Of a stretch of 64,000 bases of DNA, positions 31,301 to 34,300 are shown one piece after another. The stretch is from assembly GCF_016026235.1 (NCBI RefSeq), contig NZ_CP065614.1; one strand, given 5' to 3'. The stretch is from Escherichia coli. GTDB taxonomy: Bacteria > Pseudomonadota > Gammaproteobacteria > Enterobacterales > Enterobacteriaceae. The position numbers are program-made. Positions within the stretch are counted from its first letter, which is position 1, and every line of letters starts with the position of its first letter.

Positions 31301-34300
31301 TAAGGATGAACTTTCTCATATTCCCATCTGAAACAATATATTTCCATATATTTATTGACAAAACATTAATTATGATAAAACATCAAAGAATAAATGTAAA
31401 TAATTATCATTACCAACAAAAAGAATGCACTAGCGAGTGATGTTTACCAGCCGATATTATGGGGTCCGCTTGGAAAACGGATCTATGGTCACTCCCGTTT
31501 TTGCAACACCGATTTTGACGATAAGTGGGCTTGCTTGAATCTATCCGGAGTCTGAATGGGATTTCATTCCCGCGCCCCGATGAGTTCCGCGCCTGATGTA
31601 CATGTCGAAGAAAACGGCCGGCGGGAGGAATACGGCGCGCTACCTAGGTCGTTATCTGAAGAAGCCGCCGATAGCGGCCTCCCGGCTGGCACATTACAAC
31701 GGAGGGGCGAGCCTGAGCTTCCGTTACCTGGACCACAAAACGGGAGAAACGGCGACGGAAACGCTGACACAGCGTGAGCAGGTCGCGAGGCTGAAACAGC
31801 ACATCCCGGAGTAATGCCGATCAGTTAAGGATCAGTTGACCGATCCAGTGGCTGTGTAAGAATCCGGAAACGCTCACTTGTTTCCGGATTTTTTTATGCA
31901 CATTGGACAGGCTCTTGATCTGGTATCCCGTTACGATTCTCTGCGTAACCCACTGACTTCTCTGGGGGATTACCTCGACCCCGAACTCATCTCTCGTTGC
32001 CTTGCCGAATCAGGTACTGTAACGCTACGCAAGCGCCGTCTTCCCCTCGAAATGATGGTCTGGTGTATTGTTGGCATGGCGCTTGAGCGTAAAGAACCTC
32101 TTCACCAGATTGTGAATCGCCTGGACATCATGCTGCCGGGCAATCGCCCCTTCGTTGCCCCCAGTGCCGTTATTCAGGCCCGCCAGCGCCTGGGAAGTGA
32201 GGCTGTCCGCCGCGTGTTCACGAAAACAGCGCAGCTCTGGCATAACGCCACGCCGCATCCGCACTGGTGCGGCCTGACCCTGCTGGCCATCGATGGTGTG
32301 TTCTGGCGCACACCGGATACACCAGAGAACGATGCAGCCTTCCCCCGCCAGACACATGCCGGGAACCCGGCGCTCTACCCGCAGGTCAAAATGGTCTGCC
32401 AGATGGAACTGACCAGCCATCTGCTGACGGCTGCAGCCTTCGGCACGATGAAGAACAGCGAAAATGAGCTTGCTGAGCAACTTATAGAACAAACCGGCGA
32501 TAACACTCTGACGTTAATGGATAAAGGTTATTACTCACTGGGACTGTTAAATGCCTGGAGCCTGGCGGGAGAACACCGCCACTGGATGATACCTCTCAGA
32601 AAGGGAGCGCAATATGAAGAGCTCAGAAAACTGGGTAAAGGCGATCATCTGGTGAAGCTGAAAACCAGCCCGCAGGCACGAAAAAAGTGGCCGGGACTGG
32701 GAAATGAAGTGACAGCCCGCCTGCTGACCGTGACGCGCAAAGGAAAAGTCTGCCATCTGCTGACGTCGATGACGGACGCCATGCGCTTCCCCGGAGGAGA
32801 AATGGCGGATCTGTACAGTCATCGCTGGGAAATCGAACTGGGATACAGGGAGATAAAACAGACGATGCAACTGAGCAGGCTGACGCTGAGAAGTAAAAAG
32901 CCGGAGCTTGTGGAGCAAGAGCTGTGGGGTGTCTTACTGGCTTATAATCTGGTGAGATATCAGATGATTAAAATGGCGGAACATCTGAAAGGTTACTGGC
33001 CGAATCAACTGAGTTTCTCAGAATCATGCGGAATGGTGATGAGAATGCTGATGACATTGCAGGGCGCTTCACCGGGACGTATACCGGAGCTGATGCGCGA
33101 TCTTGCAAGTATGGGACAACTTGTGAAATTACCGACGAGAAGGGGAAGGGCCTTCCCGAGAGTGGTAAAGGAGAGGCCCTGGAAATACCCCACAGCCCCG
33201 AAAAAGAGCCAGTCAGTTGCTTAACTGACTGGCATTACACATCCCGGAGAAGTTTTTTAAGATGGTGAGGTACTTCGGGTTCCTTGCCAACCGGGTGTGT
33301 GGAGAGAAGCTGCCGCAGGTGTACCGTGCTCTGGGGATGGATAAACCGGAACCAGTGGCGAAAGTGTGCTATGCACAAATGGTGAAACAGTTCCTGAGTC
33401 GTGACCCGTTCGAATGCGTGCTGTGTGGCGGCCGGATGGTATACCGCCGGGCCATCGCGGGACTGAATGTGGAGGGGCTGAAGAAAAACGCGCGGGATAT
33501 CAGTCTGCTGAGGTATATGCCGGCCTGACACAGGCTAAGTGTGCCCGGGAATCGGTGCAAGTATAAAAAACAGCCTGTTACGGTATAAAAATCGACCATG
33601 CAGAGAGAGAAACCACCGGAGTGGTGGGAAAAGCAGAAAGGCTCACGTGGCATAAGGCGTGGACAGCGGTATCGTCTGGTTTTTCAATTTCCTATACGTG
33701 TACCATTCTGGCGGCAGCAGGTTTACTGGCCAGCACCAGAAAATCATATAACCGCGCCAAATCAGAAAGCGCCTTACTGGTCCACTTCTGTTCCATCAGC
33801 GTGGCACCGGTAACGGATTGTCAGTACTGAGGCTGTCCGCCCAGGCCTGTACAGCCTGATGGTCGATAATCTGTCCGGATGGACCAGCGGGAGCATTTGA
33901 ACAGAAACTTACGGTTTTGCTCTTTCGGTAGGCTCAGTACCGTAAGGTTCTCCATCAACAAAATAAGTACCATTAGGTAATACGTGTTTATAGGGCAGTA
34001 ATGATATATGGGCTAATACGTCATCATCAATAACCTCACCATTTTCACGTAACCCTTCAACAATATTGCTTATTCTTGATGTGTTCCAGTACAGGATTGC
34101 ATTCGATACCAGACTCAGGGCGCTGGCCTTATTCATGATTTCTTCGTAATCACCGGTCGTGAATTCACCCTGATTTGCAAAAAAGATCCATCGGGGTAAT
34201 TTATGTCGATACTCGCCTTTATTGAGCTGAAGCTCGAGTAGGCAGCCTGACGGCTGCGGCTTGTCATGGTCTGCAATTACCGTTATAAAAACAGGCAATG

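What the first reader, a model, noticed from the sequence alone, without database searches (positions are those of the whole stretch)
31585..33717. Independent IS insertions within about 10 codons of each other in different IS91 copies
IS4 (12-bp TSD CACATCCCGGAG) interrupts one IS91 tnpA after ...KQHIPE, and IS629 interrupts another copy (24053) after ...KFFKMV. A third copy (44819) is cut by IS911 further downstream. Two different IS elements hitting the same short stretch in separate copies suggests a local target hot spot or selection for inactivating this rolling-circle transposase.
Basis: seen in the sequence. Interest (0 to 1): 0.4.

Follow-up and report, generated by a model that had tools for sequence, protein, structure and literature searches.

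The report
Insertion hot spot inside IS91-family transposase

Summary
The window is a Shigella/EIEC pINV-type virulence plasmid with four copies of the IS91-family element ISSbo1. IS4 sits in copy B with a perfect 12-bp duplication (CACATCCCGGAG, codons 307-310). IS629 sits in copy A after codon 316, which is 16 bp or 6 codons downstream. Copy D abuts IS911 at codon 375. Copy C is intact.

Each insertion in the window is one old, inherited event, so alone the pair is weak evidence: P is about 0.03 for one pair and about 0.25 for any pair of the five breakpoints. Other plasmids, however, carry further independent hits in the same 33 bp:
- IS4 at the identical site in an IS1294-like element.
- An IS629-like element, reversed, at position 53081 in common IncF plasmids.
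- IS629, reversed, with a clean GTG duplication at 53094-96 in an already dead remnant, and the empty site is also on record.
- ISEc62 (IS21 family), with an ATGG duplication at 53091-94.

IS4 is explained: the site is the element's only AAA-N18-TTT match to the strong IS4 target consensus. The IS629 and ISEc62 clustering next to the T6 tract is real, but its cause is only inferred. Selection to inactivate the transposase is not supported. Interest is modest: this is a new example of a known kind.

The parts
31597..31811 (+). ISSbo1 copy B, left fragment, 5'-truncated (ref 52864-53078; tnpA codons 239-310)
   Evidence: blastn 98.6% to copy C; tblastn residues 239-310
31800..31811 (.). Left copy of the 12-bp IS4 target-site duplication CACATCCCGGAG
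   Evidence: Read directly from the sequence
31812..33237 (+). IS4, complete at 1426 bp; ends TAATGCCGATCAG...CTGACTGGCATTA; transposase ORF 31878-33224 (448 aa)
   Evidence: NCBIfam NF033592, 303.7 bits against a cut-off of 115; Pfam Nterm_IS4 and DDE_Tnp_1. 99-100% identical to IS4 copies elsewhere
33238..33249 (.). Right copy of the 12-bp IS4 target-site duplication
33238..33700 (+). ISSbo1 copy B, right fragment (ref 53067-53529), running to the natural right end
   Evidence: blastn 98.5%
22770..24048 (+). ISSbo1 copy A, left part (ref 51816-53094; tnpA codons 1-315 plus one base)
   Evidence: blastn 99.3%
24049..25354 (+). IS629 (IS3 family), 1306 bp, with an internal 4-bp deletion that splits orfB. 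No target duplication, and target bases TGAG are missing
   Evidence: IS3-family models on the intact copy at 46544-47853
25355..25787 (+). ISSbo1-like copy A, right part (ref 53099-53532). The last 185 bp or so are a diverged end variant (about 78% identity). It abuts GAAC and the senB module
44818..45913 (-). ISSbo1 copy D, truncated at both ends (ref 52176-53271)
   Evidence: blastn 99.4%
43568..44817 (+). IS911, whose right end abuts copy D at ref 53271. There is no ISSbo1 sequence on its other side
   Evidence: IS3-family model
51816..53529 (+). ISSbo1 copy C, intact reference copy. tnpA is 52149-53357 (402 aa), with an upstream 90-aa ORF at 51896-52168. The ends are uncertain by 1-4 bp because the GAAC flank is ambiguous
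   Evidence: NCBIfam NF033538, 309 bits against a cut-off of 125; Pfam Zn_Tnp_IS91 at residues 19-109 and Y2_Tnp at 147-327. Annotated 'IS91-like element ISSbo1 family transposase' in related records
53061..53099 (+). The hot-spot stretch, read on the intact copy: AAA CAG [CACATCCCGGAG] AAG TTTTTT AAGATGGTGAGG (codons 305-317). It holds the IS4 target (53067-78) and the junctions of the IS629-like element (53081), ISEc62 (53091-94), IS629 in L019 (53094-96) and IS629 in copy A (53094/53099)

Best explanation
The stretch at ref 53061-53099 of ISSbo1/IS1294-type elements is a sequence-determined insertion hot spot. Other insertion sequences enter it repeatedly because of the local DNA sequence, not because the host benefits from killing the IS91-type transposase.

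For IS4 the cause is shown. IS4 chooses sites of the form A-run, 3 nt, 12-bp duplicated core (typically ending CCGGAG), 3 nt, T-run. This is the only such site in the 1.7-kb element, and IS4 sits exactly centred on it in two different host elements.

For the IS3-family IS629 (three events) and the IS21-family ISEc62 (one event), the junctions crowd into 53081-53099. This region lies at and just downstream of the T6 tract, which is the only strongly AT-rich patch inside tnpA. I infer, but have not shown, that this easily deformed AT-rich patch in GC-rich DNA attracts these copy-out-paste-in transposases. A weak resemblance to the IS629 terminal repeat starting at 53095 may add to this.

Insertions into another IS cost the host nothing, so they persist and are inherited. 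This is why the two events in the window are shared by many pINV plasmids.
For: Positions in the window are mapped.

IS4:
- The only AAA-N16-21-TTT motif in ISSbo1 starts at 53061 and brackets the duplication symmetrically.
- Fifteen IS4 sites give the consensus AAaAc-nn-[CnCCtnCCGGAG]-Agg-TTTTTT, which the ISSbo1 site matches almost perfectly.
- One site not chosen for flank similarity (the IncC plasmid) shows the full AAA...TTT frame. The other (L001:540) shows only the A-run.
- IS4 lies at the identical site, with the same orientation and duplication, in an IS1294-like element on an unrelated 95-kb plasmid. Its flanks differ from copy B by about 4%, against 0.4% for IS4 itself.

IS629:
- Copy A carries it forward, at 53094/53099.
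- L018-type IncF plasmids carry a 95%-identical IS629 variant with a group II intron, reversed, whose complete IRL abuts 53081. This type made up 9 of 60 sampled plasmid records and 14 of 60 sampled E. coli records.
- L019 carries it reversed, with a perfect GTG duplication at 53094-96 and the empty allele L017 on record.
- The pairing of IS ends with flanks differs among the three, so none can be derived from another by recombination.

ISEc62: a 4-bp duplication ATGG at 53091-94.

Controls: nine other breakpoints that I followed up were IS26 (twice) or of unknown type, and none was IS629. Of 28-29 further distinct breakpoints catalogued, 3-4 fall in the pre-specified 33-bp window (binomial P of 0.016 to 0.002). 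The patch at 53076-53092 is one of four AT-rich patches in the element and the only one inside tnpA.
Against: - The survey is a sample: three lists of 60 rows, showing only the best match per record, plus 83 metagenome loci. It is not a census, and I followed up breakpoints near the stretch first.
- The metagenome scan added no new type of event.
- Other breakpoints in the element are not AT-rich (P = 0.57), so 'AT-rich patches attract insertions' does not hold as a general rule here.
- The literature finds no sequence preference for IS629 (PMC3271280).
- The resemblance to the IS629 terminal repeat is weak (10 of 16 and 14 of 25), and comparable matches occur elsewhere in the element.
- IS629 in copy A lacks a duplication, so its history may include a second step.
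- Most of the IS4 sites used for the consensus were ranked by BLAST extension into flanks like the query's, which inflates the consensus.
Confidence: 0.7

Rival explanations
1. Coincidence in an IS graveyard. pINV plasmids are crowded with insertion sequences, and nested insertions are neutral and accumulate. On this view the two insertions lying 16 bp apart are simply chance, and the extra cases are what one finds when looking hard at one spot.
For: Within the window alone, P is about 0.25 that some pair of the five ISSbo1 breakpoints lies this close (computed). Each event in the window is single and inherited. With about 30 breakpoints, a cluster of three somewhere in 1.7 kb is expected by a scan statistic. 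The metagenome scan found no new event type.
Against: The window was fixed before the survey, and 3-4 further independent junctions fell in it (P of 0.016 to 0.002). Among junctions where a complete IS end is verified, 4 of 7 outside the window's own pair lie in 1.9% of the element. IS4 used the identical 12 bp twice, and that site is the only motif match. All three IS629 junctions with IS91-like DNA lie within 19 bp, while none of the nine other breakpoints examined is IS629.
Confidence: 0.15
2. Selection against an active rolling-circle transposase. On this view, hosts or plasmids in which the IS91-type TnpA is knocked out do better, so disrupted copies are enriched.
For: Three of the four copies in the window are disrupted. 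IS91-family elements can mobilise flanking DNA, which could plausibly be harmful (own knowledge).
Against: - Selection for loss of function would accept a disruption anywhere in 1.2 kb of tnpA, not only in 33 bp.
- An intact tnpA (copy C) is on the same plasmid, and there are many intact copies in related plasmids.
- IS629 in L019 entered a remnant that already lacked about 85% of tnpA.
- Copy B is itself 5'-truncated.
Confidence: 0.05
3. Shared descent. On this view, the 'independent' events are one or two ancestral insertions spread among IS91-like copies by homologous recombination or gene conversion, and then modified.
For: IS91-like copies are 94-99% alike around the site, so conversion tracts could carry an insertion from copy to copy. 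L029 has the same right junction as L019 but a different left flank, which shows that such reshuffling happens. None of the four IS629 copies in the window has a duplication, which indicates frequent exchange between IS copies. Both copy A and the L018-type copy lie next to senB.
Against: The IS629 events differ in orientation and in the exact junction (53081; 53094-96 with a duplication; 53094/53099), and recombination cannot interconvert these. ISEc62 is a different element. Conversion could explain the second IS4 case only if the tract were short, because the flanks differ at 13 of the outer 113 positions on the left.
Confidence: 0.1

Closest known systems
Target-site specificity of IS4 (classical single-site insertions; AAA...TTT-framed 11-13-bp duplications)
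   Same: The element is 1426 bp and makes a 12-bp duplication. The target is framed by an A-run and a T-run 3 nt from the duplicated core, and the same frame (or, in about half of them, only the T-run arm) is seen at 13 other IS4 loci. PMC2266710 describes strong specificity in both target arms for the IS4 subgroup. The AAAN20TTT formula and the galT/pheST cases are from my own memory and were not retrieved here.
   Different: Here the target lies inside the transposase gene of another mobile element, and it has been used at least twice in different IS91-family hosts.
IS islands and nested IS elements in Shigella pINV and E. coli O157
   Same: [quoted passage not shown] Only 21 of 47 copies had 3-4-bp duplications (PMC3271280). 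This matches the copies without duplications in this window.
   Different: That study found no sequence hot spot for IS629. Here three independent IS629-type junctions lie within 19 bp.
REP sequences as shared targets of several IS families (PMC1525189)
   Same: One short DNA feature attracts insertions by unrelated IS families.
   Different: The stretch here is coding DNA of a transposase gene. It is not an extragenic palindrome, and no strong hairpin is predicted for it (-3.6 kcal/mol).
Targeting of IS3-family elements (IS911) to sequences resembling their own ends
   Same: A weak look-alike of the IS629 terminal repeat (TGAGGTACTTCGGGTTCC against TGAACCGCCCCGGGTTTCC) begins at 53095, exactly where the IS629 end in copy A begins and 1 nt from the IS629 end in L019.
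   Different: The resemblance is only 10 of 16 and is not unique in the element. The IS911 precedent is from my own memory and was not tested here, and it would not explain ISEc62 or the junction at 53081.

Membership tests
IS91 family (ISSbo1) | HUH/Y2 rolling-circle transposase with an N-terminal zinc-binding domain | tested here: met
   NCBIfam NF033538, 309.4 bits (cut-off 125); Pfam Zn_Tnp_IS91 at residues 19-109 and Y2_Tnp at 147-327
IS91 family (ISSbo1) | No target duplication; one end abuts a GAAC/CAAG tetranucleotide | tested here: met
   The right end is followed by GAAC in copies A and C and in pWR501, and by GTAC in copy B. No duplications flank the element. The family rule itself is from my own knowledge.
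IS91 family (ISSbo1) | Near-identity to the named element ISSbo1 | tested here: inconclusive
   Records 99% identical are annotated 'IS91-like element ISSbo1 family transposase'.
IS4 (IS4 family) | DDE transposase with the IS4 N-terminal domain; 1426 bp; terminal inverted repeats; 11-13-bp duplication | tested here: met
   NF033592, 303.7 bits; Nterm_IS4 and DDE_Tnp_1. The duplication here is exactly 12 bp, and duplications of 11-13 bp are seen at 15 sites.
IS629 (IS3 family) | orfA/orfB transposase of the IS3 family; ends TGAACCGCCCCGGG...; 3-4-bp duplication | tested here: not met
   The family model NF033516 is met (314 bits) and the ends are present. The duplication is absent at copy A, where 4 bp of target are missing, and at all four copies in the window. 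It is present (GTG) at the independent insertion in L019. The element is IS629; only the simple-insertion signature fails in the window.
Insertion hot spot | Several independent insertion events (differing in element, orientation, exact position or host copy) within a short stretch, at a density above expectation | tested here: met
   Six events in 33 bp: IS4 twice, IS629-type three times and ISEc62 once. P is 0.016 to 0.002 for the events beyond the two that defined the window. The survey is a sample and not a census.
Insertion hot spot | Preferential use demonstrated in a transposition assay | not testable with these tools
   This needs mating-out or deep-sequenced insertion libraries.

The most novel reading that the evidence does not exclude
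The stretch is a general attractor for copy-out-paste-in insertion sequences (IS3 and IS21 families) as well as for IS4. On this reading, a defined DNA feature causes the attraction: the T6 bend plus a sequence at 53095 that mimics an IS end and acts as a surrogate end in the transposition complex. IS91-family transposase genes would then be systematically disabled by rival insertion sequences, which would be a form of competition between mobile elements and not neutral nesting.
Probability: 0.12. Interest if true: 0.5.

Novelty: new member of a known kind. Interest (0 to 1): 0.3.

Why it matters
The result matters in four small ways.
- It gives a concrete natural example of one short site used by three IS families.
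- It adds a candidate preferred site for IS629, whose target preference is described as unknown.
- The junctions are stable lineage markers for typing. IS4 in copy B marks pINV plasmids of S. boydii, S. dysenteriae and EIEC. The reversed IS629-like junction at 53081 marks a very common group of senB-carrying IncF plasmids.
- It warns annotators that identical IS-in-IS junctions in different plasmids need not mean common descent.

It does not change any larger picture of plasmid or transposon biology.

Tried and rejected
1. Reading the diverged right end of copy A (89.7% overall) as proof that IS629 joined two different elements. The divergence is confined to the last 185 bp or so, and the 250 bp next to IS629 are 98% like copy C. 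I therefore rejected this.

2. Taking the 98 plasmid records with at least 80% coverage of the IS629-in-copy-A query as the same structure. Most were three-piece joins. In pWR501 the ISSbo1 is intact and IS629 lies 1 kb away. Only eight EIEC plasmids share the true structure.

3. A general rule that AT-rich spots attract breakpoints. The 25 other breakpoints have background AT content (P = 0.57).

4. Similarity between the IS629 terminal repeat and the target. The best forward match is at 53095, but it is weak and not unique, so I keep it only as a lead.

5. A genome-contig scan with a 32-nt right-flank pattern gave only 3 loci. The metagenome scan gave 83 usable loci but only junction types already known.

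6. Locus L074 looked like an IS4-empty copy B joined to IS629. It can be explained as an assembly jump across the 215-bp repeat shared by copies A and B, so I did not use it.

7. The classical IS4 target papers and the Mahillon and Chandler review were not held. Ooka et al. 2009 was not found. Supplementary Table S2 of PMC3271280 is stored at only 1330 characters, so I did not open it.

8. L017 (breakpoint 53048) is an internal 75-bp deletion and L020 (53025) is a rearrangement. Neither is an IS insertion.

Full report
WHAT THE WINDOW IS. The window is collinear over at least 22770-53650 with EIEC invasion plasmids such as pCFSAN029787_01, at 99.9% identity. It carries virF, ospE2, senB and the cjr-type TonB receptor cluster, so it is a pINV-type Shigella/EIEC virulence plasmid. 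The 'IS91' of the finding is ISSbo1. Its 402-aa protein scores 309 bits on the NCBIfam IS91 model and has the Zn_Tnp_IS91 and Y2_Tnp domains. Near-identical records are annotated 'IS91-like element ISSbo1 family transposase'.

CHECKING THE OBSERVATION. I used the intact copy C (51816-53529; tnpA 52149-53357) as the ruler.
- Copy B is a 5'-truncated fragment (31597-31811, ref 52864-53078). It is followed by a complete 1426-bp IS4 (31812-33237) and then by the rest of the element (33238-33700, ref 53067-53529). The 12 bases CACATCCCGGAG are duplicated exactly and encode H307-E310.
- Copy A (22770-24048, ref 51816-53094) is followed by IS629 (24049-25354) and then by ref 53099-53532 (25355-25787).
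- Copy D (45913-44818, minus strand, ref 52176-53271) abuts the right end of IS911.

The two insertions are 16 bp, or 6 codons, apart. Two refinements apply:
- IS629 in copy A has no duplication, and four target bases (TGAG) are missing.
- IS911 is a rearrangement boundary and not a simple insertion.

IS THE PAIR BEYOND CHANCE? On the window alone it is not. One pair within 24 bp has P of about 0.03. With five ISSbo1 breakpoints in the window, some pair would be that close about a quarter of the time.

Each event is also single and inherited.
- The IS4-in-copy-B structure, with the same outer flanks, is in about 24 pINV plasmids of S. boydii, S. dysenteriae, one S. flexneri and EIEC, and in five EIEC plasmids among 5,426 E. 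coli genomes.
- The IS629-in-copy-A structure is in eight EIEC plasmids. The many other 'hits' were spurious three-piece joins, and pWR501 has an intact ISSbo1 there.

EVIDENCE FROM ELSEWHERE. I sampled the breakpoints of ISSbo1-like sequences in 72,556 plasmids and 5,426 E. coli genomes (evenly spread lists) and followed the distinct ones up. Four further junctions lie in ref 53067-53099.

1. L004 is a 95-kb plasmid unrelated to pINV. IS4 sits in an IS1294-like element at the identical site, with the same orientation and duplication. The flanks differ from copy B by about 4%, including 13 differences in the outer 113 bp on the left, so the host element is a different one.

2. L018 represents a very common group of senB-carrying IncF plasmids, which made up 15-23% of the sampled records. 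An IS629 variant (95% identical, itself split by a group II intron) lies in the opposite orientation, and its complete IRL abuts ref 53081.

3. L019 is an IncF plasmid in which IS629, reversed, has a perfect 3-bp duplication GTG at 53094-96. L017 is the same locus without the insertion. L029 shares its right junction.

4. L028 (pHN9C61) carries the IS21-family element ISEc62 in an IS1294-like element, with a 4-bp duplication ATGG at 53091-94.

The three IS629 events pair different IS ends with different flank positions, so none can be made from another by recombination.

Nine other breakpoints that I examined were IS26 (52766 and 53415) or of unknown type, and none was IS629. Of 28-29 further distinct breakpoints catalogued, 3-4 fall in the pre-specified 33-bp window (binomial P of 0.016 to 0.002). 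A metagenome scan (83 loci) found 39 uninterrupted copies, 35 of the L018 type, one of the copy-A type and six with deletions or rearrangements, but no new type of event.

MECHANISM: WHAT IS SHOWN AND WHAT IS INFERRED.

For IS4 the explanation is well supported. The only AAA-N16-21-TTT motif in the whole element begins at 53061 and frames the duplicated 12 bp symmetrically: AAA CAG [CACATCCCGGAG] AAG TTTTTT. Fifteen IS4 sites give the consensus AAaAc-nn-[CnCCtnCCGGAG]-Agg-TTTTTT. Most of those sites were ranked by BLAST extension into similar flanks, which inflates the consensus. Of the two sites not chosen that way, the IncC plasmid (AAAAAAAGGC[CAGCTATTGCTG]GCCTTT) shows the full frame, and the second IS4 of pCFSAN029787_01 shows only the A-run. 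[quoted passage not shown] Many IS4 targets look like hairpin-plus-T-run terminators, but the ISSbo1 site does not fold strongly.

For IS629 and ISEc62 the clustering is shown but its cause is inferred. Their junctions lie at and just 3' of the T6 tract, in one of only four AT-rich patches of the element and the only one within tnpA. The literature finds no sequence preference for IS629 and notes that fewer than half of its copies keep duplications (PMC3271280). A weak look-alike of the IS629 terminal repeat starts at 53095. Other breakpoints in the element are not AT-rich, so AT-richness alone is not a sufficient rule.

SELECTION. The idea that the transposase is being selected against is not supported, for four reasons:
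- Loss-of-function selection would not confine insertions to 33 bp.
- An intact copy is on the same plasmid.
- Copy B is itself already truncated.
- IS629 in L019 entered a remnant with most of tnpA already gone.

COMPARISON AND VERDICT. This is a new instance of a known kind of thing, a target-site hot spot, set in the familiar landscape of nested insertion sequences on pINV. The target specificity of IS4 is already known. Use of the same few bases by IS629 three times and by an IS21-family element may not have been described: the only literature search aimed at this (for 'ISSbo1') listed no title on the subject, and I opened none of those papers. Interest is modest (0.3).

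Noticed in passing
window 13130-14425, 24049-25354, 46544-47853, 62083-63392: None of the four IS629 copies in the window is flanked by a 3-4-bp target duplication. This suggests frequent recombination between copies, or deletions adjacent to the IS, on this plasmid. The copy at 24049 also has a 4-bp internal deletion that splits orfB.
   Followed up: partly
window 25355-31811; L018 7337-9294: The senB/cjr (TonB receptor, TonB, ChaN) module is bracketed by IS91-like pieces in the same orientation. On one side is the right end of copy A plus GAAC, and on the other is copy B starting at ref 52864. IncF plasmids share the same GAAC|AGGCATAGCTG junction and carry a 60-bp fragment (ref 52864-52923). 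The module may therefore have moved by IS91-type one-ended transposition.
   Followed up: partly
window 34266-35875: There is a second, distantly related IS91-family element (36% amino-acid identity to ISSbo1 TnpA) with an intact 410-aa transposase (NF033538, 288 bits) and an upstream 140-aa ORF.
   Followed up: partly
window 39903-40312: A perfect tandem duplication of a 205-bp unit (two copies, 100% identical).
   Followed up: no
window 31461-31598: The 138 bp abutting the truncated left end of copy B match (92%) a segment of an IncC Salmonella plasmid that lies between an IS4 copy and IS4321. It may be a remnant of another mobile element that truncated copy B.
   Followed up: partly
window 25603-25787 (ref 53348-53532): The last 185 bp or so of copy A are only about 78% identical to copies B and C, although the preceding 250 bp are 98% identical. 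Copy A therefore has a mosaic or alternative right end.
   Followed up: partly
window 51300-51589, 58322-58611, 61817-62082: The sequence just left of intact copy C is repeated twice more downstream (99-100% identity), next to further repeats at 50727, 57749 and 61244.
   Followed up: no
L018 3940-7336 (NZ_LC520282.1): The IS629-like element at the hot spot in IncF plasmids is itself split by a group II intron (ltrA), giving three layers of nesting: an intron inside an IS inside an IS.
   Followed up: partly
L074 (metagenome contig QZLJ01003461.1): This contig is 99.9% identical to window 25057-31811 and then runs from the left fragment of copy B straight into the copy-A/IS629 junction without IS4. 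It is either a real IS629-bounded unit carrying senB/cjr or an assembly jump across the 215-bp repeat.
   Followed up: partly
L002 1483-1579 (pWR501): In pWR501 the left end of an intact ISSbo1 abuts internal IS629 sequence, so there ISSbo1 appears to have inserted into IS629, which is the reverse nesting.
   Followed up: no
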